Shown here piece after piece: positions 22,546 to 40,799 of a DNA stretch of 64,000 nucleotides. Each line of letters opens with the position of its first letter. Positions within the stretch are counted from its first letter, which is position 1. This DNA comes from a phage, in sequence record NC_135732.1; one strand, written 5' to 3'. The notes under the pieces were generated by a model. That model was not told the DNA's origin. It saw only the letters and a program-made list of their open reading frames with translations, and ran no database searches. Position numbers and translations under genes: made by a program.

Positions 22546-22662
22546 ATGTCATCAGGTATTTATAAAATTTGCAAGTGCGGCTGTAGTTGTAATCTTCGTT
22601 GGTGCAAGGCACTAGACGATTTTATTTGGCATTGCCCTAAATGTGATGCGGAGTATCTATGA
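22546..22662 (+). CDS. small Cys-rich peptide (38 aa)
   Basis: AGGAGG RBS then ATG; CKCGCSC...CPKC; stop overlaps nrdG start; below track length cut-off. Confidence 0.4.
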   Translation: MSSGIYKICKCGCSCNLRWCKALDDFIWHCPKCDAEYL

Positions 22663-26907: not shown

Positions 26908-27147
26908 ATGTACAAGTCATTTTCAATCTACTCAAGACAGGCGAAACACTACACAGAGATCCTGATCACTCAGAAAAAATCTGTGGAAGGTGAGTGGGAA
27001 TATCACCATAAAATGTTGCGTCCAGACTGGGTTTTTGATAGACTTATTGCTATGATCCCTCTCGGAGAAGTATACCCTCTGACAGCCCATCGCGATGCTT
27101 GGGATTTAATTGATTACATAGATTCATTTAAGGAGCCTAGATTATGA
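26908..27147 (+). CDS. hypothetical protein
   Basis: AGAGGGGG RBS then ATG. Confidence 0.45.
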   Translation: MYKSFSIYSRQAKHYTEILITQKKSVEGEWEYHHKMLRPDWVFDRLIAMIPLGEVYPLTAHRDAWDLIDYIDSFKEPRL

Positions 27148-27542
27148 AGATTGAGATTACTAAAGAAGGTAAGAAAGTGTCCGGCAACTATGCAACAGTA
27201 ATTCGGGATTTAATGTTTGAAGCCACCAAGATCGGTACATCTAAAGTTGGTCAAACTGTTAGTGTGAAAAGTAATATCGCCACAGGAGAGAAGGTATTCA
27301 TTGTGGTCAAAGGGCAGGATCCCGTGGAAGGAACAGTGGGCCGAGGTGGCTACCTGTGCATTTCTGAAGAGCCGCGTATGTTAGTGGCTGACGCTACTAT
27401 GGGTGGGAAACGTGTGTGCGAGGCGGATGAGGTAATGATTATCCAACCTGTTGATCCAGATGACCCAGCAACTTGGGTGGTAGGAAATGAAATCTTCTCT
27501 TTAGAAGAGTTATCCTTCCCAGCACCGCGCTCTGTTCAGTAA
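27144..27542 (+). CDS. hypothetical protein
   Basis: AAGGAG RBS. Confidence 0.5.
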   Translation: MKIEITKEGKKVSGNYATVIRDLMFEATKIGTSKVGQTVSVKSNIATGEKVFIVVKGQDPVEGTVGRGGYLCISEEPRMLVADATMGGKRVCEADEVMIIQPVDPDDPATWVVGNEIFSLEELSFPAPRSVQ

Positions 27543-27579
27543 TAATTTATCTTACCAGGGACGGTAGGTAGGAGGTAGC

Positions 27580-27813
27580 ATGAAAGTTAAATTTCTTACA
27601 GATTTAGGGTACCCTTCCTTGGTTGACTGTGTTGGTAAAATTGTGGAAGCAAAACGGCTATCTGCAAACGAGAATGTTGTCCTGGTTAAAGGGAAGGATT
27701 TACTAGCTGCAGGTGCAGAGTCTGGCAGGATCTCTCCTGATTATATGTATTACCTATCTTTAAGTAATCTGCCAGAGCGAGGCGGTAAAGGCCTTGAAGT
27801 TGTGGAGGAGTGA
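27580..27813 (+). CDS. small acidic protein, MKVK...VEIVEE paralog family
   Basis: AGGAGG RBS; KGKDLLAAGAESG and C-terminal LEVVEE shared with 31239 and 31453 ORFs. Confidence 0.55.
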   Translation: MKVKFLTDLGYPSLVDCVGKIVEAKRLSANENVVLVKGKDLLAAGAESGRISPDYMYYLSLSNLPERGGKGLEVVEE

Positions 27814-27818
27814 CAGGT

Positions 27819-28343
27819 ATGCTTCTGATTAACTGGGAAGACCTCTATGGGGACAAAGACCCTGTTGCGTTTGTTGATCGTAGGTGGAGATACACTGAAG
27901 AACAACTGGCGGCAAAAAATTTAACTGCAAAACGCAGAAAGATCATCCAGTGCAAGTACAAATACGCACAGTTTGCTGCAAAAGTGTCTCCACAAATCGA
28001 GAGCTTTGTGCTTAAATTGTATGACGAGTACCTCAAATTCAAATTGGATTTTGTGCAGGTGTACCGTGCACAGGTACGACCAGATACCAACATATGTAGA
28101 TGGGAGGTTGTTTGTGAAGGTAAAGATTTGCCGCTCAGCTTGACAATTGAGTGGCGTTATGGGTATCATGAGTGTGGTCTGTATGATATTTGGGATGTCA
28201 TTGTAGATCCTGCTAAGCATCTGAACACAGAGGAGCTGGAATATATCAATAAGGTTATTCTCGATATGTTTTTCAGCTACACACATGAAAACTCTGAGAA
28301 AGAACGGGATAATTTTCTTGACACCCTCAGCGACCATTTGTAG
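27819..28343 (+). CDS. hypothetical protein
   Basis: GGAGGAG RBS then ATG. Confidence 0.5.
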   Translation: MLLINWEDLYGDKDPVAFVDRRWRYTEEQLAAKNLTAKRRKIIQCKYKYAQFAAKVSPQIESFVLKLYDEYLKFKLDFVQVYRAQVRPDTNICRWEVVCEGKDLPLSLTIEWRYGYHECGLYDIWDVIVDPAKHLNTEELEYINKVILDMFFSYTHENSEKERDNFLDTLSDHL

Positions 28344-28373
28344 TATACAATTTAACCTACAAAGGGAGGACCA

Positions 28374-28601
28374 ATGAGTATAAATGTTGTGCTAATAGGT
28401 TACCTGGTAATGTCCGTTATAACAGCGGTATTCTTGACAGGTGTATGCATCGTGTCCAGACGAAGGGTGAAGTTTGATGATTTTATCACCATCATCACTG
28501 CTGCACCTTTTTGGCCTGTTGTTATCTTCATCGTAATAATGTGCCTAGTTGATTACTACAAGAATATCAGGAAGGAGAGTAGGGATGGAGACCGCACCTA
28601 A
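28374..28601 (+). CDS. small membrane protein (two hydrophobic segments)
   Basis: AGGGAGGA RBS; hydrophobic helices. Confidence 0.5.
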   Translation: MSINVVLIGYLVMSVITAVFLTGVCIVSRRRVKFDDFITIITAAPFWPVVIFIVIMCLVDYYKNIRKESRDGDRT

Positions 28602-28737
28602 AACTATCTATACTGTTCTTAAAGAGATTGCGTTCTACGCAGATCTTAGCCAGGCACCTTTATGGGAAAAGAGCATGTATTTAAAATGGTGCGTTAATTT
28701 AGGGAGACCTTCCAGTGTTTCAAGCCATGTTTATTGA
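28585..28737 (+). CDS. hypothetical small protein
   Basis: AAGGAGAG RBS then ATG; overlaps upstream gene. Confidence 0.35.
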   Translation: METAPKTIYTVLKEIAFYADLSQAPLWEKSMYLKWCVNLGRPSSVSSHVY

Positions 28738-28820
28738 GATGCTATCTGGGATATTGTTACTGGTAGCCATCTTAGGTGGTGCAGTTCTGATGTATAACTA
28801 TCTTGAAAAAGGAGACAGCA

Positions 28821-29006
28821 ATGGTAAAAAATAAATCTTTAGAGCAGGCTGAAAACCTTCTCCACGAGCTGGTAAAGGAGTGGAAAGTTGAATACTCAGA
28901 TTTTAATGCACGAGAGGGTGAAGATTATTGGCCTACGGAGCGCTCAGAGGGCGAATGGTATCAAGATTTTATAGAGTGGTTATATCAGACGTGCGATGAG
29001 GGGTGA
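28821..29006 (+). CDS. hypothetical small protein
   Basis: AAAGGAGA RBS then ATG. Confidence 0.45.
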   Translation: MVKNKSLEQAENLLHELVKEWKVEYSDFNAREGEDYWPTERSEGEWYQDFIEWLYQTCDEG

Positions 29007-29008
29007 CG

Positions 29009-29473
29009 ATGTTTGTTAAATATGTAAAAACGTGCCTCAACAGTCTTGGCAGAGAGCATTGGTACACCTTGCTTGAAAAAGGGGAAATTTTAACAAAATC
29101 TGGAAAGATAACTTTGATACCTCTTGATAGTAAAGGTAAAGACCCGTCACGACTTGTTATAGATGATTACGTTACAGGTGTGACGTTCGAGGTCTCTGTG
29201 GAGAGGTTAATACGCAGAGCTGGCGGCCCTTATGACCGAAGAGAGTATGTTTTCGATTCCGTTACAGAGATGGGGGAGCATCCGTCTTTAATGTTCAGGA
29301 TGGTAATCAGAGATATGAGGTCATCTATAGATAGGATCGTAAAGGACATTAAGGAACCTTTTAGAGTAAAAGTTAAGAAGTTTTTCGATTCTAAGATTAA
29401 CATACTCGCCGTTGCACTAGGTGTAGTTCAACTTCTGTTAATTTTGCACTATTTTGAACTACTATTTAAGTAG
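29009..29473 (+). CDS. hypothetical protein, C-terminal hydrophobic segment
   Basis: GAGGGG RBS then ATG. Confidence 0.5.
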   Translation: MFVKYVKTCLNSLGREHWYTLLEKGEILTKSGKITLIPLDSKGKDPSRLVIDDYVTGVTFEVSVERLIRRAGGPYDRREYVFDSVTEMGEHPSLMFRMVIRDMRSSIDRIVKDIKEPFRVKVKKFFDSKINILAVALGVVQLLLILHYFELLFK

Positions 29474-29535
29474 TAGTTGAGATATGGCACAAAGGATGTG
29501 CCATAGTGAAATAAACTAAGAAAGAGGTAGAGAGA

Positions 29536-29883
29536 ATGCCAAAGATTAAAACGTTATTACTGTGGGTAGCTGTTTTAGCTTTTATAGGGTACTGGACTTG
29601 GGAAACTGAATTAAAAGATATCGGATATACCAGTCTTGAGAGCAAGGCGTGCATTGGCATAACCGATGCGTTCAGGCAAAATGCTCTGGATCACGAATGT
29701 GTTGATGCAGATATAGATGAGAAACTGTCTAAGGACAAAGATTTTTACCATGGGCATGCTTTACTTGATAGTGGTGACACTGTAGAGTTCTGGTCGTGGT
29801 TTCGTGAAGATGGAACAATAAAAACAGCAGTAAAGATCTCTAACAAAGAGTTAATGCTGTTGCAGCAAAAGGAGGCTCAATGA
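29536..29883 (+). CDS. hypothetical protein, N-terminal membrane anchor
   Basis: RBS; N-terminal LLLWVAVLAFIGYW. Confidence 0.5.
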   Translation: MPKIKTLLLWVAVLAFIGYWTWETELKDIGYTSLESKACIGITDAFRQNALDHECVDADIDEKLSKDKDFYHGHALLDSGDTVEFWSWFREDGTIKTAVKISNKELMLLQQKEAQ

Positions 29884-30167
29884 TCTGGATATCCTATGCT
29901 GATGGCACCATGCTGTATACTGCAGGTACCAGATATGAAGTTCAGGAGAACGATAAAAAATTTATCGTAAAAACATTTGACAAGGACGACAACCTTTTGC
30001 TAGAATTGACTTACAAAGTTGGAGAGGTATCCAATATCCAGTTGGATTGTGGTCATAAAGATAATCCACTCAAAAAACCTGGAGTAGGTAAGGCTTCAGA
30101 AGAACGTCTGTCTCGTATTGCAGAAAGCGTTTCTCCCCAAAAATCTAAGAAGAGGACTAGAAAATGA
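29880..30167 (+). CDS. hypothetical protein
   Basis: AAGGAGG RBS. Confidence 0.5.
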   Translation: MIWISYADGTMLYTAGTRYEVQENDKKFIVKTFDKDDNLLLELTYKVGEVSNIQLDCGHKDNPLKKPGVGKASEERLSRIAESVSPQKSKKRTRK

Positions 30168-30358
30168 AAAACTTACGTTTTAACACTTATTACTACAACA
30201 CATTGAATGATTTGTATTATATTGTTCGAAGTAAAAGTCCTGAAACAGTCCTATTCTGCCGCGAACCTTTCAAAGGGGAGGAAGTAGAGTCTGAGATGAA
30301 TGTTAGCCAGATCACCTCTTTGTTGCTCTCAGGCGCAATGGAAGAAGCAATATTCTAA
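30164..30358 (+). CDS. hypothetical small protein
   Basis: AGAGGA RBS. Confidence 0.45.
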   Translation: MKNLRFNTYYYNTLNDLYYIVRSKSPETVLFCREPFKGEEVESEMNVSQITSLLLSGAMEEAIF

Positions 30359-30377
30359 ACCGGGCGGGAGGGTTTTT

Positions 30378-30563
30378 ATGAAGCACTATTGTCTGTCTGG
30401 TAGAATGGGTGCAGATTGTGATTGGGTTTTCTTAAAACTTGTCAGTATTCGAGAGTTCATCCCAGAGGAAGAGCAAGAAAGTGAGCTGATGTCATGGATC
30501 AACCATTACGGTAACACTTTTCGGCATGTTAAGGTAGAAGAGTTGCCAGGCGAGGCTGATTGA
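30378..30563 (+). CDS. hypothetical small protein
   Basis: GGGAGGG RBS then ATG. Confidence 0.45.
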   Translation: MKHYCLSGRMGADCDWVFLKLVSIREFIPEEEQESELMSWINHYGNTFRHVKVEELPGEAD

Positions 30564-30658
30564 CTATGATTGCATCAATATTAACGTTTATGGGTGGCGT
30601 GTCATTCGGATTCATTGTTTGCCTATTTATAGTGATTATGTCTATGCGGGGCTGAATT

Positions 30659-30955
30659 ATGAAACTTTTTGAGTGGTTTAAAAAGTTTAAATATAAAGCT
30701 GTAGCCATCGTGCCGTGGTCAATTCAGTGGGTTGATGAAGGTGGTCTACCGATACCTGGTGACAAAGATACTGGGTACTGGATTATGATGGAGAACGGGT
30801 TTGGAAAGCGAAAGTATACGTGCACAAACTCTACTCGATCTGCACTTAATAGAGTGCCTGGTTATAAACTTATGGTTGTGTGGAAAATGTCAGGCGTGCC
30901 TCCAGCCAATGCTCAATTTCTTACTGACAATCCGACCACGGTAGAGGGAGATTGA
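30659..30955 (+). CDS. hypothetical protein
   Basis: ORF with ATG start. Confidence 0.45.
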   Translation: MKLFEWFKKFKYKAVAIVPWSIQWVDEGGLPIPGDKDTGYWIMMENGFGKRKYTCTNSTRSALNRVPGYKLMVVWKMSGVPPANAQFLTDNPTTVEGD

Positions 30956-30957
30956 TA

Positions 30958-31239
30958 ATGAAAAAGATTAACAGTAGTGAAGTAGAGTTTAAACTTGTCG
31001 GAAAAGGCACTTACTGGGAAGTTCGTCAAAAGGTATATTTGTTCGGTCTTATTCCCTACTGGTCTAAATTCTACTGGGGAGCTAACGAGTGGGGAAGATA
31101 CGCCACCAAATCAATGGCACTTGTTGGTATAGCAGAGTACATTGCAGCCCGAGATAGGGTTGGAACCACTTATTACTACACTGCTGACGATATTCGTAAC
31201 AGTGTTTACGTCCCACAACCGCCTGAGGGAGACCGTTGA
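30958..31239 (+). CDS. hypothetical protein
   Basis: GAGGGAG RBS then ATG; track start was TTG. Confidence 0.5.
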   Translation: MKKINSSEVEFKLVGKGTYWEVRQKVYLFGLIPYWSKFYWGANEWGRYATKSMALVGIAEYIAARDRVGTTYYYTADDIRNSVYVPQPPEGDR

Positions 31240-31463
31240 TGAAAGTTAAAGTTTTAGATTCAAGCTTCTATATTGGTCAGGAGCCCTTAGTGGGGAAAGT
31301 GTTTACCGCTATCCCTAACGAAGATTATCCTGACCTTTTAAAAATAAAAGGTGCAGATCTTATTGCCGCTGGTGCATCTCAGGACTGCTTTGACAGCCAG
31401 TGGACCTACAACTTTGCCCTTGGTGAGGATGTAGAGATAGTGGAGGACGAGAATGAAGGTTAA
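31239..31463 (+). CDS. small acidic protein, MKVK...VEIVEE paralog family
   Basis: GAGGGAGA RBS; KGADLIAAGASQD and DVEIVEDE tail. Confidence 0.55.
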   Translation: MKVKVLDSSFYIGQEPLVGKVFTAIPNEDYPDLLKIKGADLIAAGASQDCFDSQWTYNFALGEDVEIVEDENEG

Positions 31464-31707
31464 AATTCTTGATTCTAACGTCTACTTGGGACAATCCTTC
31501 CTGAAGGGAAAGGTTGTACCTGCGGTGTACTTTGAATGGTTGCCTGACAACGATCCTGTGCGTCAGAAGCATTCCACTGTATCACACGGTGTGGTATTTA
31601 TTCGCGGGTTAGATCTGATCAAAGCGGGTGTCCCCAAGTATTACTTTGGGGAAGAACATTACTATGCCTTCGGTGTAGGAACAGACGTAGAGATTGTAGA
31701 GCGGTAG
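31453..31707 (+). CDS. small acidic protein, MKVK...VEIVEE paralog family
   Basis: GGAGGA RBS; MKVKILDSNVYLGQ and DVEIVER tail. Confidence 0.55.
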   Translation: MKVKILDSNVYLGQSFLKGKVVPAVYFEWLPDNDPVRQKHSTVSHGVVFIRGLDLIKAGVPKYYFGEEHYYAFGVGTDVEIVER

Positions 31708-31708
31708 T

Positions 31709-32107
31709 ATGAAGAACAAGCTTTTCAAAGTAACAATGAAAATTCGCGGAGCTTGGAGCGTAAAGCAAGGGCGTATTCCGGAATTTGAGAAAGACTTCTA
31801 CGTAGTCTCCACCTCGGAGGAGGCTGCATGCTGGCAGGCTGGCTATGCCTATGCAAGAACCTGGTACGAAGGATACCAGACTGGGGGCTATGACGGAGAA
31901 ATTATCAGCAAGGGTGTAGAAGAAATTAATGTGTTGACAAGTGAAAAAGTTTTTGTTATAGTGCATCCAGATTCCAGAGTGAAGCATTACTGGAATGCCA
32001 GAACAAAAACTTGGACACCGTTTGCAGATTCTGCTACGCCACTTTTAAACCAGAAAGCTCTTGACTCTGCCCCAAGTTATGGGGTTGTTGAAGAAAAGCT
32101 AAACTGA
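31709..32107 (+). CDS. hypothetical protein (paralog of 33919 ORF)
   Basis: VIVHPDSRVKHYWNARTKTWTPF resembles VMRHPHSNIAYYWDVLNNEWTPDL in 33919 ORF. Confidence 0.5.
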   Translation: MKNKLFKVTMKIRGAWSVKQGRIPEFEKDFYVVSTSEEAACWQAGYAYARTWYEGYQTGGYDGEIISKGVEEINVLTSEKVFVIVHPDSRVKHYWNARTKTWTPFADSATPLLNQKALDSAPSYGVVEEKLN

Positions 32108-32124
32108 AACAGTGAGGTGTCACC

Positions 32125-32415
32125 ATGATGGATTTAATTCTAAATATTGATAACGCAGAAGAGTTTAAAGACGATGGTGTAACAAGCATGGACAAACCCT
32201 GCTCTGCTAAGGTTGACTCAAAATGGACCTACAAGTTTGACGGAGAGATCTTCGCAAATGATGAGAAGGTTGTAGATGCTGCAGCCATTTTAAACGCTCT
32301 AGGGTACGACCCTGTGAATTCTTTGATCAAGGATCCTGTTGAGTTTGCAGAGTATGTTCGAAAAATGGCAGATCTTGCTGTGGATATTTTAAAAACTATC
32401 GACAACAAGCTGTAA
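32125..32415 (+). CDS. hypothetical protein
   Basis: GTGAGGTG RBS. Confidence 0.5.
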   Translation: MMDLILNIDNAEEFKDDGVTSMDKPCSAKVDSKWTYKFDGEIFANDEKVVDAAAILNALGYDPVNSLIKDPVEFAEYVRKMADLAVDILKTIDNKL

Positions 32416-32421
32416 AAACTG

Positions 32422-32450
32422 TTGACACAACGCTTCAGATTTAGTATCAT
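32422..32450 (+). promoter_or_regulatory. sigma70-like promoter
   Basis: TTGACA, 17-nt spacer, TATCAT. Confidence 0.5.
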
Positions 32451-32499
32451 TGTTTTCAAAGAGAGATAGTTATTCCCTCTTCCTTAAAAGGAACACGTT

Positions 32500-32820
32500 A
32501 TGCAAATTGAAATCACTGGCAACAATGTAGAAATCACAGAAGGTATGGTATCTTTTATTTCCCGCAAAATGTCCAAGCTGGAGCGTTTACATCCCTCTGT
32601 TAACTATGCACGTGTGAGTGTAAAAGTTGAAAATGATCACCAGGAAGTTATGGCGTTCATTTTTGACAATTCTGGAAAAGAAGTTATTGCCAAGGCTAAA
32701 GGCAGTGATGCTTACGAGGCAACTGACCGTATGGTAGATGTTGCAGCACGTCAGCTGGCTAAATGCGGTGGAAAGAAAGGTAAGGGGAAAGGCAAAGTAA
32801 AGATTGACTTTGGAGAATGA
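32500..32820 (+). CDS. hpf: ribosome hibernation promoting factor homolog (HPF/RaiA family)
   Basis: MQIEITGNNVEITEGM...VSVKVEN...ARQLAK matches E. coli HPF as recalled; AAAGGAAC RBS. Confidence 0.7.
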   Translation: MQIEITGNNVEITEGMVSFISRKMSKLERLHPSVNYARVSVKVENDHQEVMAFIFDNSGKEVIAKAKGSDAYEATDRMVDVAARQLAKCGGKKGKGKGKVKIDFGE

Positions 32821-32957
32821 GGTGCTACAATGGGTGTGATTAAGAAATTAGTCCCAAATGTAGAGATTGCATGCTTTGAAATTATGTTTGCAATCGCAGT
32901 TGTAGTTAATGTGTTAGGTTACGGCTATTAATATCAAATAATTGAGGAGACCTCTAA

Positions 32958-33227
32958 ATGAAAATTAAATTATTCAAAACTGAGCTGGCAGACAAAAATT
33001 GTGGTCTGGTTGAAGGCATGATTGTTGAAGCACAACCAGTGGACTATATGAAGGTGGTTCGTGATGCCCTGGGTGAAGGTTTTGATCTGATGGAGCCAGC
33101 TCTGCGAGAAGATGTTATCGAGATGGCTAAAAAGCACACACCTGAGGGTTTGGTGGTGTTTGTTGCACCTGGTAATGGAGAAGAGTTGATTGTAACTCCT
33201 GATGTGTATGAGATTGTAGAGGAATAA
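32958..33227 (+). CDS. small acidic protein (VEIVEE-tail family)
   Basis: GAGGAGA RBS; C-terminal DVYEIVEE. Confidence 0.5.
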   Translation: MKIKLFKTELADKNCGLVEGMIVEAQPVDYMKVVRDALGEGFDLMEPALREDVIEMAKKHTPEGLVVFVAPGNGEELIVTPDVYEIVEE

Positions 33228-33318
33228 TCCTGCTTGGATTAGCATACTTCCTCGCTAAGGAAGATTTGTAATTATTTGTGGGAAAGGAATCCCAATATCT
33301 TACCAGAGGTGATATTAT

Positions 33319-33582
33319 ATGATTGTTTATTTTAAAACTTCAGGTGGATACCCTGATTCTCAAAGCTTGATCGGAAAAACGTGCACAGCATACTCACCTC
33401 TTGATGAGGAGGTAAGTGATATTCTACGAAATATGTATCGGATTGACCCCCAAGAAGCTTTTGATCAAAACCTTGTATTTGTCAAGGGCTCAGACATGAA
33501 GTCTTTGGGAGCATTCCCTGAAGCAGATGATGATGCCGTTTATTCGTTCATGACTCCTTTTGAAGCTATGGTTGTTGGGTGA
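33319..33582 (+). CDS. small acidic protein (family-like)
   Basis: GAGGTGA RBS; LVFVKGSDMKSLGAF resembles family core. Confidence 0.5.
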   Translation: MIVYFKTSGGYPDSQSLIGKTCTAYSPLDEEVSDILRNMYRIDPQEAFDQNLVFVKGSDMKSLGAFPEADDDAVYSFMTPFEAMVVG

Positions 33583-33586
33583 TAAT

Positions 33587-33919
33587 ATGAAAGTACGCTT
33601 TATTGGTGAAACAATTCCTGTGCATCTCCGGTCTCCTGAGGATTCTGCAGATCTTGCATCTCAAAAGGCGAGAGGTTATGATAAGAAAGTAACCTCAACC
33701 GATGTAGTGCTTGAGGCTACTAGTCTACCTGACCCTGCTGCATTCTTTAATCATTATGGGTACTATTTCAGCAATCTGATGAATATCGGTGAGCTTGTGT
33801 TTATTAGTGGTGGAGAAATTGTTAGCAAGCTTGGCGGAGATCCGGATGTCTTTCATGAAACCTGTCCTTTTGCATTTGTGGTGGGTTCAGATGTGGAAGT
33901 TATTGAGGAGGTGCGGTAA
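33587..33919 (+). CDS. small acidic protein (VEIVEE-tail family)
   Basis: ATG 33587 (MKVRFIG); C-terminal DVEVIEEVR. Confidence 0.5.
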   Translation: MKVRFIGETIPVHLRSPEDSADLASQKARGYDKKVTSTDVVLEATSLPDPAAFFNHYGYYFSNLMNIGELVFISGGEIVSKLGGDPDVFHETCPFAFVVGSDVEVIEEVR

Positions 33920-34314
33920 TGGTAAGCCTATACCGTGTTGAGTATAGCTCAGATACTGTATACAACGTAAGAAGCAAAGATCGCAGCGACAGAGTGCAAG
34001 AAATGTACGTTCTTGCCGACAGTCCGTTATCTGCAGCGTTCAAGGCAGGGGCTCTTGCATCTCGTTGGAAATTTGAAGGTGGATCTTTCTATGAAGAAAC
34101 CCTTGAAGATTCTGTTGTTATTTCTTCTGTAGAGGTTTCAGATGACTACGAAGGGAAAAAGTTCGTAATGCGGCACCCACACAGCAATATTGCGTACTAC
34201 TGGGATGTTCTGAACAACGAGTGGACCCCAGATCTTCAGAAGGCTACTGTGCTAACACCGTTTTTGGCAGATAAGTTCCCACCAGAAGGTAATTTATCTG
34301 CACTGTTTCAGTAA
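33919..34314 (+). CDS. hypothetical protein (paralog of 31709 ORF)
   Basis: GAGGAGG RBS; shared HP..YW...WTP motif. Confidence 0.5.
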   Translation: MVSLYRVEYSSDTVYNVRSKDRSDRVQEMYVLADSPLSAAFKAGALASRWKFEGGSFYEETLEDSVVISSVEVSDDYEGKKFVMRHPHSNIAYYWDVLNNEWTPDLQKATVLTPFLADKFPPEGNLSALFQ

Positions 34315-34393
34315 TTTTCTTGCACACAGGTGTTGACAACGCCAACCCTGTGTGAAATAATACCTTCATCTTAACAAGACAGGAGACCGATTG

Positions 34394-34651
34394 ATGAAGA
34401 TTAAATTGAAAAACCTTGAAACGGCAGAGATTCAGGACGGTGTTGATTTCCGTTCTAAAGATGGTGACATCTTAGAGGTAAATATTCCAACCTACGAGCT
34501 GATCAAAGGTTTTGGCAACGTCCCCGAGGAAGGTATCGCAGACGTTCTTCTAATGTTAATCGTTAGTGGGACAGTGTTCTTGGGTGAAGGTGAGAACGCT
34601 ATTGCAATCCCAAGCCATTTTTATGAAGTAGTTGACGAAGAGGTGCTGTAA
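34394..34651 (+). CDS. small acidic protein (VEIVEE-tail family)
   Basis: ATG after TTG; C-terminal FYEVVDEEVL. Confidence 0.5.
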   Translation: MKIKLKNLETAEIQDGVDFRSKDGDILEVNIPTYELIKGFGNVPEEGIADVLLMLIVSGTVFLGEGENAIAIPSHFYEVVDEEVL

Positions 34652-35002
34652 ATGAAAGTAGAAATTACTGGTTTTGATGTGAATGTGGTTCCGGAAGATA
34701 TTTTAGCTAAACTCCCGGAAGGTTTTGGTAACGGTGTTGTGGTGGATGCTGTTCCTCCTACCAAAGACATTCTGCTGCAGTATGGTGTAGCAGAGGAAGA
34801 TGTCGATAAAGTTCTTACAATGATGGCAATCGATCGTGTTGTCGTTGTTAAAGGTCTCGATAATTTTGAGAGTGATCCCCTGATTATTCGTGGAGATGAC
34901 TATAAAATCATCGATAATGAAGGCCAAGAGTTCTATGAGCCTTGTGCAGAAGATATTCTTAGCTTATTACTGGAAGCAGGTACCGAAGAGGAGGACGAAT
35001 AA
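34652..35002 (+). CDS. small acidic protein
   Basis: GAGGTG RBS; MKVEITGFDV. Confidence 0.5.
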   Translation: MKVEITGFDVNVVPEDILAKLPEGFGNGVVVDAVPPTKDILLQYGVAEEDVDKVLTMMAIDRVVVVKGLDNFESDPLIIRGDDYKIIDNEGQEFYEPCAEDILSLLLEAGTEEEDE

Positions 35003-35331
35003 TGAAGATTGACCCGTTACTGAAGGCTCGTGCAGAAAAAGCGTACACCATTAAGCTGACCAACCTGGTTCCTACTTGTCATCCAGATGTAGGTTGGCCT
35101 GAAGGTCTGGTAGAGGGGACTGTAACAGCTGCATACCTCCCTAACATCAAATACCTTATGGAAATCTTGGAGCTGGATGAGGAAACGGCAGAAGAGTTCC
35201 AGTTGGACATGAAACAAAGTGGGACTCTGGTTATTCACGGGTGGTATAATACTAAAGACGCAGAAGACCCTCTTGTAACTTCTAATCTGGCATATGAAAT
35301 CTTAGGACCTTTGAACCTGGGGGAAGACTAA
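35002..35331 (+). CDS. hypothetical acidic protein
   Basis: GAGGAGGA RBS. Confidence 0.5.
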   Translation: MKIDPLLKARAEKAYTIKLTNLVPTCHPDVGWPEGLVEGTVTAAYLPNIKYLMEILELDEETAEEFQLDMKQSGTLVIHGWYNTKDAEDPLVTSNLAYEILGPLNLGED

Positions 35332-35618
35332 TGAAAGATCTGGTTAAGATTAAGATTAAAGATACCAACGGCGAACTCAGCCATTTTGGAATTAATGATG
35401 GTGACGAGCTGATCGCACACCTGCCTACCAAGGAAGTTGTAAGCAAAGCAGTTGCCGGAGAAGAAGATGCAATGCAGGCTGCAGGTGTGGATGAAAACTA
35501 TGTAGCCATGTGCATGTGCCGAGACCAGGTTGTTCTGTATAAAGCGTATCGACCAAACGGAGCCACGGAGTGGCTTGTATTCCGACCCGAAGGATATGAA
35601 ATCTTAGAGGCACTATGA
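35331..35618 (+). CDS. hypothetical acidic protein
   Basis: GGGGGAAG RBS. Confidence 0.5.
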   Translation: MKDLVKIKIKDTNGELSHFGINDGDELIAHLPTKEVVSKAVAGEEDAMQAAGVDENYVAMCMCRDQVVLYKAYRPNGATEWLVFRPEGYEILEAL

Positions 35619-35707
35619 TAAATCTTGCCAAGGTTGCAACGGTACTGTTAATTATTTGCTGGTCAGTAACCTTAACACTGTGTCTTGTATTTCAGTAAGG
35701 TGCTTAT

Positions 35708-35971
35708 ATGAACATCCTGATGTGGGTTGTAGCAGTGGCGTTTGTTGCATGTTTTTGCTGCTGGGTTGCGGTGAGGATTTCTGTAGCTACCCTTCGGAAG
35801 TTGGGGTTCTCAGAGTGGGATATTAATATCCTTTCTTTTCGCAATGAAACAATCTCAGCCGCCCTGCTCTGTAAGAAATTCAAGTGGGAACCTTGCGAGG
35901 TCATGAACTATCTAAGAACGGGAGATATCCCTGAAAGATTTAAAAAAGTTCTTGACGACAAGGATAAATGA
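35708..35971 (+). CDS. small membrane protein
   Basis: AAGGTG RBS; N-terminal hydrophobic helix. Confidence 0.45.
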   Translation: MNILMWVVAVAFVACFCCWVAVRISVATLRKLGFSEWDINILSFRNETISAALLCKKFKWEPCEVMNYLRTGDIPERFKKVLDDKDK

Positions 35972-36126
35972 TAGTATAGTGACTAACAAGAGGTGAGGAA
36001 TGACTGATTTTACTGAAGCTTTAATGATGGCCTTGTCTGTTTTAGCGCTATCGGTGTGTTTTGGGGCGTTATTCACATCTCTGGTTAAAGTTTTACATAC
36101 AGTATTATTACCCAAGGAGCGCAGTA

Positions 36127-36378
36127 ATGACGAAGATTGACTTGAATGCTGGCGATCATGTTGTTGTCAAATGCATTGGAGATTATCTTGGATTCACAAT
36201 CGGCAATACTTACGAGGCGGTAGTGGCGAAGGTTTACTATGATAAAGTCCTCAGTCTTGTATTTGACTGCGATGATGATGGGGATGACCGATACGTCTGT
36301 GAGGTGCTGGCACGAGACGATAGTGAAGACCAGAAATTCCTGGTTATTGAACTGAACGGTATTTTTGTAGAACGTTAA
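36127..36378 (+). CDS. hypothetical small protein
   Basis: AAGGAG RBS then ATG 36127; track ORF started upstream. Confidence 0.45.
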   Translation: MTKIDLNAGDHVVVKCIGDYLGFTIGNTYEAVVAKVYYDKVLSLVFDCDDDGDDRYVCEVLARDDSEDQKFLVIELNGIFVER

Positions 36379-36406
36379 TTTAAAACAACATAAGGAGACT
36401 CTTACT

Positions 36407-36712
36407 ATGGCTAAATCTAAAGTTGAACTGTTCACCTCTCTTCCTTCTGACACTGCAGAGCGTGATCGCCTTCGCAAAACAATCGAAGAACTGGTAGAAC
36501 TCCAACTTCAGATTAAAGATCTGAAAGATGCCATTAAGGATATCATTCTCGTTGAGAAGCAGGATCACCTGTATTCTCCTAAATTCATCAAATCTCTGGT
36601 GGCTACCGAGTTCGATATTCGCTATGAGGCTGAAAAACGTCGCGCTAAAATCGAAGAAGAGGTTGAGCACATGTCTGAGGCAGACATTCTGTTCAAACGC
36701 TCTGTAGAATAA
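36407..36712 (+). CDS. hypothetical protein (charged, helical)
   Basis: AAGGAGA RBS. Confidence 0.5.
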   Translation: MAKSKVELFTSLPSDTAERDRLRKTIEELVELQLQIKDLKDAIKDIILVEKQDHLYSPKFIKSLVATEFDIRYEAEKRRAKIEEEVEHMSEADILFKRSVE

Positions 36713-36718
36713 TGACAA

Positions 36719-36746
36719 AGAGGGGGGCTTGGGCCCCTCTTTTTTC
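36719..36746 (+). terminator. rho-independent terminator
   Basis: GAGGGGGG-CTTG-GGCCCCTC hairpin then TTTTTTC. Confidence 0.7.
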
Positions 36747-36767
36747 TATCTATGAAGGAGATTTGAG

Positions 36768-37094
36768 ATGGGTATACCGATTACTGTAAAAGAGCTAAAT
36801 GAACGTGATGCAGGTGGTCTATGGCCTGCACGAAAAATCCGCTGCGTCTATATGAAAGAGAATCTTGAACATCTTGATCAACAGATAAAGGTCGGCGATA
36901 TTTTCGAGGTCTTCTATTCCAATCGTCGCAACTGGGAAACCATTCAACCTTCCGGTTTTGTTCTTGCTAAGCTCGACACTGGAGAAGTGATTATCCCAGG
37001 GTTGGATATTGTCTTCGAAATTATCCAGGAGTGGGATCCGGATAAGATTAGATACGAAGAGTTATTCGGTAAAGGTATTATCAAACCTGTGTGA
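36768..37094 (+). CDS. hypothetical protein
   Basis: GAAGGAGA RBS. Confidence 0.5.
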   Translation: MGIPITVKELNERDAGGLWPARKIRCVYMKENLEHLDQQIKVGDIFEVFYSNRRNWETIQPSGFVLAKLDTGEVIIPGLDIVFEIIQEWDPDKIRYEELFGKGIIKPV

Positions 37095-37402
37095 GGTGGA
37101 TTATGTCTACAAAGGCGGCTAAATACTCTTACATGCCATCAACCTCTGCAGAGGTAGACTTTAGTTTCGATGTGTTTCCACTGTTTGAGGTGGTTCTGGC
37201 ATACCCAACAATACTATCTACTCCTGAATCACTTGTGCCTGTTAAATTGCAGAACGCTATGCATTCTATGCACTACAACAATAAATGTAGGCACAGATGG
37301 TGTCAGGACGAGGAAAAAGATTTAGATAGTTTGAGAGATTTTGACAGTCACCTTTTGACACCTTTCAGCTACTCCAACCTTGATAAGCCCTCATGGGTAT
37401 AG
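37091..37402 (+). CDS. hypothetical protein
   Basis: GAGGTGGA RBS. Confidence 0.45.
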   Translation: MRWIMSTKAAKYSYMPSTSAEVDFSFDVFPLFEVVLAYPTILSTPESLVPVKLQNAMHSMHYNNKCRHRWCQDEEKDLDSLRDFDSHLLTPFSYSNLDKPSWV

Positions 37403-37427
37403 CAAAATATCAAATTTAAGACACCTA

Positions 37428-37455
37428 GGACGCTCTGTGGCGTCCTTTTCTTTAT
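37428..37455 (+). terminator. rho-independent terminator
   Basis: AGGACGC-TCTGTG-GCGTCCT hairpin then TTTCTTT. Confidence 0.7.
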
Positions 37456-37615
37456 CTGGTGCACGATTGCATACCTTGGACAGATAATCTCATTACAGAG
37501 CGTTTAAGAGCTTCCTACAAACAAATCTCTCTTTCGAGCGTAGCGAGAACGCACGTCCGTTTTGACCCAAATCACCATACGCTCGGATTTTAACCAAACC
37601 CTCGCGGCGTTTCTG

Positions 37616-37644
37616 TTGACACATTACCGCTCTCGTGATAGTAT
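37616..37644 (+). promoter_or_regulatory. sigma70-like promoter
   Basis: TTGACA, 17-nt spacer, TAGTAT. Confidence 0.5.
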
Positions 37645-37664
37645 CCACACATCGTTTGGAGAAT

Positions 37665-37766
37665 ATGGAATACACAATGAGAACATTGTCTGAAGTTTTA
37701 GTGGTGATCCTGATGATCATTACATCCATAGCGGCTGTTGCCGGAATACTCACAGGTGGAACATGA
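37665..37766 (+). CDS. small hydrophobic peptide (33 aa)
   Basis: GGAG RBS; MEYTMRTLSEVLVVILMIITSIAAVAGILTGGT; stop overlaps next ATG; below track cut-off. Confidence 0.35.
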   Translation: MEYTMRTLSEVLVVILMIITSIAAVAGILTGGT

Positions 37767-37978
37767 TCAACACACATGCATCTGAAGAGACATCCGAAGG
37801 AGTGACGACCATATGTAACCTGGCTGAGCCAGTGAAAGAGGAAAACTTCGATTCTGAAGATTCTCCATCTTCGCTCCAGGTAGACCCTGAGGCTGATGAC
37901 CTGACGTGGGAGGACATCGTAGACATCTGGTTCTCTATTATGCCTGAGCACGAAGAGTTCAGAGGTGGTAGACTATGA
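37763..37978 (+). CDS. small acidic protein
   Basis: GGTGGA RBS; ATG overlapping upstream stop. Confidence 0.45.
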   Translation: MINTHASEETSEGVTTICNLAEPVKEENFDSEDSPSSLQVDPEADDLTWEDIVDIWFSIMPEHEEFRGGRL

Positions 37979-38098
37979 AGCACCGAGCCCACACAGGTTC
38001 CTCATGCTAAAGCATGACCTGAAGAGGCAAACGTGCATAATTCCTGTGCATTGAAACGTATAAACCCTGTTCACACTCTCATTCACAGAGGAGATTTC

Positions 38099-38314
38099 AT
38101 GAAGATAGAAATATTTGGTGGGGCTGACAACACTCGTGGCCTGATTTACCTTGAATTCGATGAATCATACCTGCCAGAGGTGTTAAATATAGACTCTGTT
38201 GCTGAGGCTTTGGGAGTAAACCCTAAAGAACTCCACTCTTGTGCTGAGATCGATGGTTGGGAAGAGACCATGAACATTGATTTCAGTGAAGTAGAGGATG
38301 AACCGCTGGACTGA
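38099..38314 (+). CDS. small acidic protein (MKIEI family-like)
   Basis: AGGAGA RBS then ATG 38099; track ORF started upstream. Confidence 0.5.
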   Translation: MKIEIFGGADNTRGLIYLEFDESYLPEVLNIDSVAEALGVNPKELHSCAEIDGWEETMNIDFSEVEDEPLD

Positions 38315-38443
38315 CACACAATTAGCTGCCCGGCTAAAGTGCTGGAAGCGCACCTATAACACATATTTCAACTAAATTTCCCACCACCACAATCACTTAC
38401 CTACCACACGTGACTGTTTGCTTGTTTAGTGAGCAGTCATGCC

Positions 38444-38471
38444 TTGACATTCTTGCCTATCCTGATAAAAT
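38444..38471 (+). promoter_or_regulatory. sigma70-like promoter firing into non-coding region
   Basis: TTGACA, 16-nt spacer, TAAAAT; no credible ORF downstream. Confidence 0.4.
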
Positions 38472-39791
38472 TAAGTTCTTCTCTTTTCTTTTACCGAGTA
38501 ATTCGGGTTTTCTGTTCTCTTCGGTTTGAAGGGGTATGGAGATACACCTGAGTGAACAGGGTGAACAACCGAACCATTAGCTATGGCATTAGCATGGCGA
38601 AGCGGACGGGTGACGAAAGAGGGGCCGGAGGACACCAGTCACTGCCATATGATATATGGGTGATAACCTGAAGAGTCTGAATAAGTGTTTAAGTACCAGT
38701 CAGAGGAAAAGGTGAATGGTAGCCGAAGGGGGAGGGGGGGTTTCTTGTATCTTTAATTTGTATATTATGTATACACTTGTAAACCAATTTCATATGAATC
38801 TGTTTACCACACAAAGTGGATTGAGACAAATATTACCTATTAAACTTGAATTATTTATAGAAAATACCACAACACACCTTAAGTCTTTGATTTTACACAT
38901 AAATCTTACAGATATTCAACCTCCATATTTAACATACTTGTAACATATCCTATACCACACCTGCCTGATCAATTCCCCCAACTACATCCTCTATATTTTC
39001 CCTGTCTGTACTACCCCATCCCCGCCGGGAGTCCCGTCATATCTGGCTTTCCAGCAAATATCACACCCACAAATATCATTGCCTGAAGAGGGTTTCATCC
39101 TCTAATACCTGCCTTACCTGAAGAGCGCTTCATACACCACGTAAATTTTTTAATTGACCTGCAATTTTCCCGTCATGACCCCCTGCCCCGCCGGAGAGGT
39201 TGGCTTTTCCCACACAGACCTGAAGAGTCAGCCAGAAATATCTGAACAGGCCCAATTCTACCACGATTTTGACCTGACCTACAGGAGTGCTGCCAGGCGG
39301 ACGAAATGGGAATACTTCTCATTCTTATAATAATTCTCAAATATCGAGGCAGTGAAGCAAATTAATAGGTGAGGCCGTTCACATAGTGGCACAACATTTG
39401 CAATCTATTTTGTGTGGGGGAATGAGAATACCTATCATTGTGAGAACTGTTATCATTACGGGCAATTTAACATAATACCCATTATGCGCACCACTGGCGA
39501 TACATACAGGGATTGATAACATGAGTTACTGTTTACGCATATAACAATTATATTTATTACTATTTGTGTGGGATATAGTTAGCAGCCGATAGATTAGATA
39601 TTGACCTGCGGACTTCTGACCGTCTAGACGTCTAAACGCCCACACAGCAAGAGTTATACATACATCGCTGAATGTAAACAGGGCCGCAAAAATGCTACCA
39701 TACCAGTTTGTAAATTTTTCATGCAGCACTTGACAAAGAGGAGAAAAACTTGTCTGACATAATGTGACCTAACTGACACAACATGACACTT

Positions 39792-39875
39792 TTACACACC
39801 TATTAGTTTACACACTGGATTGTTTACATTCCTGATTGTTCACATGCTAACCATTTACATGATTGACTGTTTACA
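39792..39875. repeat. iteron-like array of TTTACA(C/T)A motifs
   Basis: Six copies at about 15-16 bp spacing (39792, 39807, 39823, 39838 variant, 39854, 39870). Confidence 0.6.
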
Positions 39876-39888
39876 CACCGATAATCAG

Positions 39889-40138
39889 CCATGCCATTCG
39901 TTTGCATGACAATAATTATACATGACAATAATCGCACTGATTATAATTAGCATGACATAATATAAAAGCAGGGCAACTATTAGCAGATCTATAGTTGCCT
40001 TGCTTGTTATGTCATGATTAACTAAATACAAGGCAACTATGATCTGATTAATAGTTTGCAGACAAACTATCACGGGGGTGATGGTTACTGCTTTTATATT
40101 ATGTCGCGACTCCGTCGCGCCATGCCATTCGTTTGCAT
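39889..40138. repeat. symmetric element: 18-bp direct repeats flanking inverted repeats
   Basis: CATGCCATTCGTTTGCAT at 39890 and 40121; inverted arms 39950-39971 and 40089-40111; internal hairpin 39971-39998. Confidence 0.6.
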
Positions 40139-40763: not shown

Positions 40764-40788
40764 AGGGGCTTTAAGCCCCTGACCGTGC
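40764..40788 (-). terminator. rho-independent terminator for minus-strand block
   Basis: GGGGC-TTTAA-GCCCC hairpin followed on the minus strand by TTTCTTTTT. Confidence 0.6.
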
Positions 40789-40799
40789 ACCTTGTTGTA

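What the first reader, a model, noticed from the sequence alone, without database searches (positions are those of the whole stretch)
28727..37766. Several very short hydrophobic peptides with ribosome-binding sites, below the ORF-track cut-off
Examples: 28727 (about 35 aa, MFIEMLSGILLLVAILGG...), 30567 (about 29 aa), 32830-32931 (33 aa, MGVIKKLVPNVEIACFEIMFAIAVVVNVLGYGY), 35614 (about 27 aa), 36000 (about 46 aa, strong AGAGGTGAGGA RBS), and 37665-37766 (33 aa). Single-helix membrane peptides of this size can act as holin-like factors or as toxins and regulators of membrane proteins. They are easy to miss in annotation.
Basis: seen in the sequence. Interest (0 to 1): 0.35.

Follow-up and report, generated by a model that had tools for sequence, protein, structure and literature searches.

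The report
Six small phage membrane-peptide genes
The six tiny hydrophobic ORFs are real, conserved single-helix membrane-peptide genes of an rV5-like E. coli phage; five are already annotated in close relatives, one (27 aa) was annotated in none of the records inspected, and their function is still unknown.

Summary
The window is a Vequintavirus (rV5-like E. coli myovirus), 98.6% identical to phage magaca. All six ORFs exist as described. Each fills a gap between same-strand genes, has a Shine-Dalgarno site and encodes one predicted transmembrane helix. Only 13 of 582 small ORFs in the window are this hydrophobic, and six of those are these. Across 17-21 distinct relatives, substitutions fall mainly at third codon positions. 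Pooled pN/pS is 0.24 in frame, against 1.1-1.2 in the other two frames.

They are mostly not new. rV5 ORF131, 145 and 156 (p1, p3, p5) were listed as "membrane protein, 1 TMD" in 2013. BASEL phage records also annotate p2 and p6. Four belong to PHROG families of unknown function.

The exception is p4 (35615-35698, 27 aa). It was annotated in none of the 11 annotated records I inspected and is absent from the 15-billion-protein collection. It is nevertheless intact in 117 phage records and stays a 27-codon hydrophobic ORF in a lineage with 51% nucleotide change.

p2 is an accessory 96-nt cassette flanked by 10-bp direct repeats.

No homology points to a function. A holin role is unlikely: the endolysin lies 23 kb away, the promoters are sigma-70-type, and no holin family matches. 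This is ordinary biology, plus one useful annotation fix.

The parts
28715..28834 (+). p1: 39-aa single-TM peptide (MFQAMFIEMLSGILLLVAILGGAVLMYNYLEKGDSNGKK). GTG start. Overlaps the next gene (ATG 28821) by 14 nt.
   Evidence: Orthologue of rV5 gp126/ORF131, 'membrane protein, 1 TMD'. Matches phrog_15251 at E=1e-30. Variable columns by codon position are 3/5/21. pN/pS is 0.09. SD is GGGAG at -8.9 kcal/mol.
30566..30655 (+). p2: 29-aa single-TM peptide (MIASILTFMGGVSFGFIVCLFIVIMSMRG). Accessory cassette.
   Evidence: Annotated only in BASEL and MiataMamis records. Present in 90 phage records and precisely absent (96 nt) in Murica, Aya and the IMGVR_b lineage. Variable columns are 6/0/8. pN/pS is 0.19. 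No PHROG or Pfam family.
30550..30559 (+). Upstream copy of the 10-bp direct repeat GCGAGGCTGA bounding the p2 cassette. The downstream copy is at 30646-30655 (GCGGGGCTGA here).
   Evidence: The repeat is exact and 96 nt apart in EmilHeitz. The deletion junction in Murica keeps one copy.
32830..32931 (+). p3: 33-aa single-TM peptide (MGVIKKLVPNVEIACFEIMFAIAVVVNVLGYGY), directly after the ribosome-hibernation-factor homologue (32500-32820).
   Evidence: Orthologue of rV5 gp140/ORF145, 'membrane protein, 1 TMD'. Matches phrog_15151. The exact sequence occurs on 753 contigs. Only its own 50% cluster appears among 1.84 billion representatives. In IMGVR_b it has 8/102 nt differences, against 56/281 in the flanks.
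35615..35698 (+). p4: 27-aa single-TM peptide (MINLAKVATVLLIICWSVTLTLCLVFQ). ATGA overlap with the upstream gene. Unannotated in every annotated record inspected.
   Evidence: The full-length ORF is found in 117 phage records at 81% aa identity or more. It is not annotated in the 11 annotated records inspected and is not in the protein collection. Its 21 distinct DNA versions give 9 peptides, all of 27 codons with KD19 of 2.39 or more. In simulation, 40 random changes keep an open hydrophobic ORF in 0.4% of trials.
35708..35971 (+). 87-aa protein with an N-terminal TM helix, flanked by p4 and p5. Possible partner (inference).
   Evidence: Matches phrog_13956, unknown function. Only four 90% clusters, all 79% identical or more. 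The AF2 model has pLDDT 62 and was not used.
36000..36140 (+). p5: 46-aa single-TM peptide with an acidic tail. Overlaps the next gene (ATG 36127) by 14 nt.
   Evidence: Orthologue of rV5 gp151/ORF156, 'membrane protein, 1 TMD'. Matches phrog_16755. The start codon alternates ATG/GTG among relatives. Homologues are all 78% identical or more. pN/pS is 0.41.
37677..37766 (+). p6: 29-aa single-TM peptide (33 aa if started at 37665). Its stop overlaps the start of the next gene (ATGA, 37763). First ORF after a promoter-like site.
   Evidence: Annotated in Murica (29 aa) and BASEL (33 aa). Matches phrog_34195, a 29-aa profile. pN/pS is 0.23 in frame, against 1.97 and 0.71 in the other frames. Replaced in B9-1.
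37616..37644 (+). Sigma-70-type promoter-like site (TTGACA-17-TAGTAT with TG) upstream of p6. Similar sites lie at 35952-35980 (before p5), 32804-32831 (its -10 overlaps the p3 ATG) and 30543-30570 (its -10 overlaps the p2 ATG).
   Evidence: Consensus scan. PhagePromoter predictions sit at the same places in the Gotham record. Not evidence of function.
28374..28601 (+). 75-aa protein with two TM helices and a basic tail, two genes upstream of p1. Called 'putative holin' (ORF129) in the rV5 paper.
   Evidence: Matches phrog_10061, unknown function. No holin family hit.

Best explanation
**What they are.** These are six separate, genuine protein-coding genes of a Vequintavirus. Each encodes a 27-46-aa peptide that is little more than one transmembrane helix.

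**Expression.** They sit in the long rightward array of small accessory genes.
- Inferred: host RNA polymerase transcribes them from sigma-70-type promoters together with their neighbours.
- Shown in the sequence: they are translationally coupled to those neighbours. The overlaps are ATGA for p4 and p6 and 14 nt for p1 and p5.

**Evolution.** Shown: all six are under purifying selection at the amino-acid level and are restricted to this phage genus. p2 and p6 are dispensable in some natural isolates.

**Proposed mechanism (inferred, not shown).** After insertion into the E. coli inner membrane, each peptide acts through helix-helix contacts. The partner would be a host inner-membrane protein or a co-encoded phage membrane protein, for example p4 and p5 with the 87-aa protein between them. 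The purpose would be host takeover, exclusion of other phages or countering defence. They would not act as the lysis holin.

**Confidence by step.**
- Real translated genes: about 0.9 for p1, p2, p3, p5 and p6, and about 0.8 for p4.
- Membrane insertion: about 0.8.
- Modulator-by-binding mechanism: about 0.35.
For: **Position and signals.**
- The ORFs fill same-strand gaps and have SD sites.
- Their hydrophobicity is far above the background of small ORFs: 13 of 582 reach the threshold, and six of those are these.

**Selection.**
- Variable alignment columns by codon position, summed over the six, are 57/33/93. By my arithmetic chi-square is about 30, p about 3e-7.
- Pooled pN/pS is 0.24 in frame, against 1.23 and 1.07 in the other two frames.
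- Start codons interchange between ATG and GTG but are never lost.
- p1, p2, p3 and p5 are more conserved than the flanking coding DNA in divergent lineages.
- p4 keeps exactly 27 hydrophobic codons despite 43/84 nt changes. Simulation puts this at 0.4% by chance.

**Independent annotation.**
- The alternative frame over p6, as annotated in rV5 gp157, is closed in the window and evolves neutrally.
- Others annotated five of the six independently, and TMHMM/Phobius called a TMD for three.

**Context.**
- Sigma-70-like promoters and intrinsic terminators frame the units (rV5 paper).
- The neighbourhood is rich in other small membrane proteins: 28374-28601, 29009-29473, 29536-29883 and 35708-35971.
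Against: - There is no direct evidence of translation or membrane localisation for any of them. The rV5 virion mass spectrometry did not report them, as expected for non-structural peptides.
- There is no homology to any characterised protein, so the mechanism rests on analogy only.
- pN/pS for p3, p4 and p5 (0.33-0.49) rests on few substitutions, and the pairs compared are phylogenetically non-independent.
- Part of the C-terminal tails of p1 and p5 is constrained by the RBS of the next gene.
- Promoter-like sites overlap the starts of p2 and p3, so some conservation could be at the nucleotide level.
Confidence: 0.6

Rival explanations
1. The gaps are regulatory spacers holding promoters, ribosome-binding sites and coupling distance. 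The ORFs in them are incidental and yield no functional peptide.
For: - Promoter-like sites lie at or just before p2, p3, p5 and p6. PhagePromoter calls sit at the same places in Gotham.
- The tails of p1 and p5 contain the AAGGAG SD and the ATG of the next gene.
- p2 and p6 can be lost.
Against: - The third-position excess and in-frame pN/pS of 0.24, against about 1.1-1.2 out of frame, argue for coding.
- No second-position change occurs in p2.
- All six are hydrophobic, against a 2% background.
- Start codons are preserved through ATG/GTG swaps.
- p4 retains a hydrophobic ORF after 51% nt change.
- Four other gaps in the same stretch hold promoter-like or terminator-like sites or nothing, and no such ORF.
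Confidence: 0.06
2. One or more of the peptides are lysis-timing factors (holin, pinholin or antiholin partners). The main candidate is p1, working with the 2-TMD protein at 28374-28601 that the rV5 paper calls a putative holin.
For: - p1 lies two genes downstream of ORF129, the 'putative holin'.
- A TM helix followed by a short charged tail (p1, p5) is holin-like in outline.
Against: - The endolysin is 23 kb upstream.
- No holin family matches any of them or ORF129.
- The holin call for ORF129 is itself only a TMHMM/Phobius guess.
- p2, p3, p4 and p6 have no charged C-terminal domain.
- The promoters are sigma-70-type rather than the late motif described for rV5.
Confidence: 0.1
3. They are toxin-like peptides that depolarise or permeabilise the inner membrane to shut down host physiology early in infection, in the manner of type I toxins such as TisB, Hok and DinQ.
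For: - Size, a single helix and very short termini match the general description of type I membrane toxins (review PMC12648545).
- They are placed early, in an accessory region.
Against: - No Pfam toxin family is hit.
- There is no meaningful similarity to TisB, Hok, DinQ, Ibs, Ldr or ShoB sequences.
- The helices are uniformly hydrophobic rather than amphipathic with key basic residues.
- Six different depolarisers would be redundant.
- Premature depolarisation would harm a phage that needs energised cells.
Confidence: 0.12
4. They are leader or coupling ORFs. Only the act of translating them matters, because it delivers ribosomes to the overlapping downstream start. The peptide itself would be irrelevant.
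For: - The overlaps with neighbours are 4 nt (p4, p6) and 14 nt (p1, p5).
- p5 and p6 are the first ORFs after promoter-like sites.
Against: Coupling does not require conserved amino acids, a fixed length or hydrophobicity, yet all three are conserved. p3 does not overlap either neighbour.
Confidence: 0.1

Closest known systems
rV5 ORF131, ORF145 and ORF156 (RefSeq rv5_gp126, gp140, gp151), listed as 'membrane protein, 1 TMD' in Kropinski et al. 2013 (PMC3606486, Table S3)
   Same: Direct orthologues of p1, p3 and p5. They share position, length and 95-100% sequence identity.
   Different: Nothing of substance differs. The paper gives no function. It does not list p2, p4 or p6.
BASEL-collection Vequintavirus annotations (e.g. 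EmilHeitz bas49_0169, 0162, 0154, 0144, 0139) and PHROGs 15251, 15151, 16755, 34195
   Same: These annotate p1, p2, p3, p5 and p6 as hypothetical proteins or families of unknown function.
   Different: p4 is missing from all of them. p2 has no PHROG. The chosen starts differ for p1 (35 vs 39 aa) and p6 (33 vs 29 aa).
Bacterial small inner-membrane regulator proteins (AcrZ, MgtS, MgrB, KdpF, CydX; review PMC12648545)
   Same: They share size (about 30-50 aa) and a single TM helix with minimal termini. The proposed mode of action is the same: binding a larger membrane protein through the helix.
   Different: There is no sequence relationship. These are phage-encoded, no partner is known, and this is analogy only.
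Type I toxin peptides (TisB, Hok/Gef, DinQ, Ibs, Ldr, ShoB)
   Same: Short single-helix inner-membrane peptides.
   Different: No family match. No antisense RNA or long structured 5' UTR is evident, and there is no Rfam hit in 27000-39500. They are embedded in operons and translationally coupled rather than being stand-alone repressed genes.
Phage holins, pinholins and antiholins
   Same: Small phage membrane proteins. p1 is near the protein proposed as the rV5 holin.
   Different: See the membership test. There is no family match, they are not near the endolysin, most lack a charged C-terminal domain, and holins usually have 2-3 TMDs (rV5 paper text).

Membership tests
Holin / pinholin / antiholin | Sequence membership in a described holin family | tested here: not met
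   No Pfam hit at E up to 5. The PHROG hits are all 'unknown function'.
Holin / pinholin / antiholin | Genomic linkage to endolysin or spanin genes (lysis cassette) | tested here: not met
   The endolysin (phrog_90, E=3e-56) is at window 5482-5952. The peptides lie 22.8-32 kb downstream. p1 is near a merely 'putative' holin.
Holin / pinholin / antiholin | At least one TMD (usually 2-3) followed by a charged, hydrophilic C-terminal domain | tested here: inconclusive
   All six have one TMD. Only p1 and p5 have short charged tails. p2, p3, p4 and p6 end 0-3 residues after the helix.
Holin / pinholin / antiholin | Triggers membrane permeabilisation that releases or activates the endolysin at a set time | not testable with these tools
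   This needs lysis-curve genetics.
Type I toxin membrane peptides (Hok/Gef, TisB, Ldr, Ibs, ShoB, DinQ) | Sequence membership in a toxin family | tested here: not met
   No Pfam match.
Type I toxin membrane peptides (Hok/Gef, TisB, Ldr, Ibs, ShoB, DinQ) | Cognate antisense RNA antitoxin or translationally inert primary transcript | tested here: inconclusive
   No Rfam family in 27000-39500. The genes are operon-embedded and coupled to neighbours. An undescribed antisense RNA cannot be excluded.
Type I toxin membrane peptides (Hok/Gef, TisB, Ldr, Ibs, ShoB, DinQ) | Toxicity or depolarisation on expression | not testable with these tools
   This needs induced expression.
Vequintavirus small 1-TMD membrane proteins (rV5 ORF131/145/156; PHROGs 15251, 15151, 16755, 34195) | Orthology by sequence and synteny | tested here: met
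   p1, p3, p5 and p6 match full-length at E=1e-21 to 1e-36 and occupy the same positions in rV5, Murica and BASEL genomes. p2 and p4 have no PHROG but are syntenic and conserved.
Protein-coding small ORF (as opposed to chance ORF) | Codon-position substitution bias, in-frame purifying selection and a preserved reading frame | tested here: met
   This is weakest for p3, p4 and p5 taken individually.
Protein-coding small ORF (as opposed to chance ORF) | Direct evidence of translation | not testable with these tools
   My literature searches surfaced no Ribo-seq or peptidomics study of a Vequintavirus.

The most novel reading that the evidence does not exclude
The six peptides, together with the other small membrane proteins nearby, form a battery of phage 'transmembrane micro-inhibitors'. 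Each would dock by its helix onto a different host inner-membrane target, such as a membrane-anchored defence system, a transporter, or a division or secretion component. p4, the 87-aa protein and p5 would form one three-part membrane complex. On this reading p4 is a functional gene overlooked in more than 100 sequenced phage genomes.
Probability: 0.15. Interest if true: 0.55.

Novelty: already known. Interest (0 to 1): 0.2.

Why it matters
The practical value is limited.

- **Annotation fixes for a widely used phage genus** (BASEL collection, O157 typing and therapy candidates). p4 should be added. p2 should be annotated where present. The starts of p1 and p6 should be harmonised. The over-extended starts of rV5 gp157 and A51.2 A512_106 should be trimmed.
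- **A ready test set.** The group is six short, conserved, single-helix phage peptides in a genetically tractable E. coli phage. It could be used to ask what phage membrane micropeptides do.

The existence of such genes is neither surprising nor new.

Tried and rejected
1. **p6 as the N-terminus of a longer protein split in this phage.** Rejected. rV5 gp157 and A51.2 A512_106 are the downstream gene with an extended start in a different frame. That frame is closed in the window and evolves neutrally.

2. **Distant homologues to infer function.** None found.
   - Pfam gave none and PHROGs gave only unknown-function families.
   - p5 has only relatives at 78% identity or more among 5.8 billion proteins.
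   - p3 has only its own cluster among 1.84 billion representatives.
   - The 87-aa neighbour has only four clusters.
   - The HPF neighbour is confined to this genus among phages.
   - The word-index search refuses queries under 40 aa, so p1-p4 and p6 could not be searched there.

3. **Paralogy among the six, or with neighbouring membrane proteins.** None.

4. **Structure of the 87-aa neighbour as a functional clue.** The AF2 model has pLDDT 62 and pTM 0.32. That is too poor for a fold search.

5. **An RNA element explaining the conservation.** No Rfam hit.

6. **Synonymous-site hyper-conservation in p3.** Considered, but 4 observed synonymous differences against about 8 expected is not significant, so I dropped it.

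7. **More loci from IMG/VR.** Only 2 were found.

Full report
**Identity of the window.** The 10 kb around the finding is 98.6% identical to Escherichia phage magaca. It matches 121 phage records at 89-99% identity, all rV5-like myoviruses of the genus Vequintavirus. GC skew shows a rightward transcription arm up to about 38 kb and a leftward arm beyond. The six candidates all lie on the + strand, in the distal part of the rightward arm. That part is a dense array of about 45 small genes, almost all of unknown function.

- p1: 28715/28727-28834
- p2: 30560/30566-30655
- p3: 32830-32931
- p4: 35615-35698
- p5: 36000-36140
- p6: 37665/37677-37766

Each fills a gap between same-strand genes and is tightly joined to its neighbours.
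- The p4 ATG overlaps the upstream stop (ATGA).
- The p6 stop overlaps the next start (ATGA).
- p1 and p5 each overlap the next gene by 14 nt and carry that gene's AAGGAG Shine-Dalgarno inside their last codons.

All six have an SD-like site. The anti-SD duplex is -5.8 to -8.9 kcal/mol. Neighbouring genes average -8.1, and 13% of random positions reach -6.

Each contains one stretch of 18-26 hydrophobic residues. The Kyte-Doolittle 19-residue maximum is 2.27-2.95. Among all 582 ORFs of 25-60 aa in six frames of the window, only 13 reach 2.2. Six of those are these ORFs. The other seven lie either on the strand opposite to the local direction of transcription or in the ORF-poor turnaround region. 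I count ten gaps of at least 60 nt in this stretch, and the relatives' annotations. Six hold these ORFs, and the rest hold promoter-like or terminator-like sites or nothing. This is not chance.

**Start-site corrections.**
- p1: the ATG at 28727 has no SD. The GTG at 28715 has GGGAG 7 nt upstream and is an ATG in FV3, B9-1 and DrSchubert. The product is therefore most likely 39 aa.
- p2: it starts at ATG 30566, with GAGG 9 nt upstream.
- p6: only the second ATG (37677) survives in the most divergent lineage, and the PHROG profile is 29 aa. The first ATG cannot be excluded.

**They behave as coding sequence.** I collected 24 related loci from GenBank phages, IMG/VR and public assemblies, giving 17-21 distinct sequences per ORF.
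- Wherever the segment is present, the frame is open and the length is kept.
- Variable alignment columns by codon position are given below.

| ORF | Position 1 | Position 2 | Position 3 |
|---|---|---|---|
| p1 | 3 | 5 | 21 |
| p2 | 6 | 0 | 8 |
| p3 | 7 | 3 | 5 |
| p4 | 17 | 11 | 21 |
| p5 | 16 | 6 | 22 |
| p6 | 8 | 8 | 16 |
| Sum | 57 | 33 | 93 |

- By my arithmetic the summed counts give a chi-square of about 30.
- Nei-Gojobori counting against the window gives pN/pS of 0.09, 0.19, 0.33, 0.49, 0.41 and 0.23 for p1-p6. The pooled value is 0.24. The same nucleotides read in the other two frames give 1.23 and 1.07. The pairs are not phylogenetically independent and the per-ORF counts are small, so the pooled contrast is the reliable part.
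- Start codons switch between ATG and GTG (p1, p4, p5) but are never lost.
- In the most divergent lineage (IMGVR_b, about 82% nt identity overall), p1, p3 and p5 are more conserved than their coding flanks. For p1 the counts are 11/123 against 54/279 differences. p2, where present, is likewise better conserved than its flanks in the divergent FV3 lineage (7/96 against 58/278).

**p4 is the informative outlier.** In the most divergent lineage 43 of its 84 nt differ. It is nevertheless still a 27-codon ORF with a higher hydropathy score (2.73-3.13). In a simulation, 40 random substitutions left an open, equally hydrophobic ORF in 0.4% of trials.

**Mostly already known.**
- The 2013 rV5 genome paper (PMC3606486) ran TMHMM and Phobius. 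Its Table S3 lists ORF131 (39 aa), ORF145 (33 aa) and ORF156 (46 aa) as 'membrane protein, 1 TMD'. These are p1, p3 and p5.
- Murica annotates p1, p3 and p6. The manually curated BASEL phages and MiataMamis annotate p1, p2, p3, p5 and p6.
- p1, p3, p5 and p6 are PHROG families 15251, 15151, 16755 and 34195, all of unknown function. Their exact sequences are in public protein collections as hypothetical proteins.
- p2 has no PHROG and is annotated in few records.
- p4 is annotated in none of the 11 annotated records I inspected and is absent from the 15-billion-protein collection. tblastn nevertheless finds the complete 27-aa ORF in 117 phage records at 81% identity or more. The 'hypothetical protein' listed under those matches is the upstream gene's 4-nt overlap.
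- The rV5 RefSeq (gp157) and A51.2 (A512_106) records miss p6. They extend the downstream gene's start across it in another frame. That frame is closed in the window and shows no purifying selection.

**p2 is a cassette.** Murica, Aya and the IMGVR_b lineage lack exactly 96 nt. About a quarter of records lack it: p2 is found in 90 records, against 117-118 for p4 and the HPF gene. The segment is bounded by the 10-bp direct repeat GCGAGGCTGA, which holds an SD and a stop codon. The repeat is exact in EmilHeitz and has one mismatch in the window. Loss by recombination or slippage between the repeats, or gain with duplication of the junction, explains the polymorphism. It also shows that p2 is dispensable. 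Most of p6 is replaced in B9-1.

**Context and expression.** Strong sigma-70-type promoter-like sites lie just upstream of p5 (35952-35980) and p6 (37616-37644, extended -10). Intrinsic terminator-like sites lie at 36717-36742 and 37427-37446. Two further promoter-like sites overlap the ATGs of p2 and p3. The rV5 paper reports 33 such promoters across the genome and a distinct late motif elsewhere. I infer transcription by unmodified host polymerase, that is, early or middle expression; this is not shown. The neighbourhood holds several other small membrane proteins:
- a 2-TMD protein (28374-28601), the paper's 'putative holin';
- a C-terminally anchored protein (29009-29473);
- two N-terminally anchored proteins (29536-29883 and 35708-35971).

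The last of these is flanked by p4 and p5.

**Function.** Nothing can be assigned by homology.
- Pfam gives no match, and all neighbours are PHROGs of unknown function.
- p5, p3 and the 87-aa neighbour have no relatives outside the genus in searches of billions of proteins.
- The six are unrelated to each other.

The endolysin (phrog_90) is at 5482-5952. No holin family matches. Four of the six have no charged C-terminal domain. The promoters are not the late type. By analogy with bacterial small membrane proteins that act by binding larger membrane proteins (review PMC12648545), I favour helix-mediated modulation of host or co-encoded phage membrane proteins. This is inference, at about 0.35 probability. 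Membrane-toxin, lysis-timing and pure translational-coupling roles remain open.

**Verdict.** The finding is ordinary and largely in the literature and databases already. The new items are a conserved 27-aa gene (p4) that was annotated in none of the records inspected, the cassette nature of p2, and several start-site and over-extension corrections.

Noticed in passing
window 30550-30655: The p2 gene is a 96-nt presence/absence cassette bounded by a 10-bp direct repeat (GCGAGGCTGA) that contains an SD and a stop codon. It is absent from about a quarter of related phages.
   Followed up: yes
window 37562-37766 (rV5 NC_011041 gp157; A51.2 A512_106): Two public records extend the start of the gene at 37763-37978 upstream across p6 in another frame. 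That frame has a stop in the window and evolves neutrally, so those annotations are probably over-extended.
   Followed up: yes
window 35331-35618 (rV5 gp148/gp149): The 95-aa gene upstream of p4 is split into two overlapping ORFs (70 and 44 aa) in the rV5 reference by a 1-nt indel. This is either a real frameshift or a sequencing error in that record.
   Followed up: partly
window about 38300-40800, especially 39888-40160: The strand-switch region has almost no credible ORFs (the rV5 paper's 2.6-kb 'non-coding' box). It contains a cluster of repeats. There is an 18-nt perfect inverted repeat (39954-39971 / 40088-40105) and a 20-nt perfect direct repeat (39888 / 40119). There are also four copies of an approximately 15-18-nt motif (AAGCAGGGCAACTAT) in both orientations. 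Possibly an origin or a protein-binding array.
   Followed up: partly
window 32500-32820: Ribosome hibernation factor (S30AE/RaiA) homologue directly upstream of p3. Among 50,697 records in the phage collection it is found only in this genus. The single other hit is a Salmonella chromosomal record at 42% identity.
   Followed up: partly
related records MG0656xx: Eighteen records named 'Campylobacter phage' with host C. jejuni are 95-98% identical to this E. coli phage region. The labels or hosts look doubtful.
   Followed up: no
window 6016-6222: A 68-aa ORF right after the endolysin has an N-terminal signal with a lipobox-like LSC motif (MKDFLLAILFMVACLSCG...). It is a candidate lipoprotein or spanin component. 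It matches phrog_4641, unknown function.
   Followed up: partly
window 22517-22615: Another 32-aa partly hydrophobic + strand ORF (TTG start) sits in a 176-nt same-strand gap. Conservation and RBS were not checked.
   Followed up: no
window 28374-29883 and 35615-36140: Membrane proteins cluster in two groups. The first is the 2-TMD protein, p1, a C-terminally anchored 154-aa protein (virion MS evidence in rV5) and an N-terminally anchored 115-aa protein. The second is p4, the 87-aa anchored protein and p5. This suggests membrane modules.
   Followed up: partly
window 28800-28834 and 36105-36140: The hydrophilic tails of p1 (KGDSNGKK) and p5 (KERSNDED) resemble each other. Both are encoded by the AAGGAG-spacer-ATG initiation region of the next gene, so this is convergence imposed by overlap, not homology.
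   Followed up: yes
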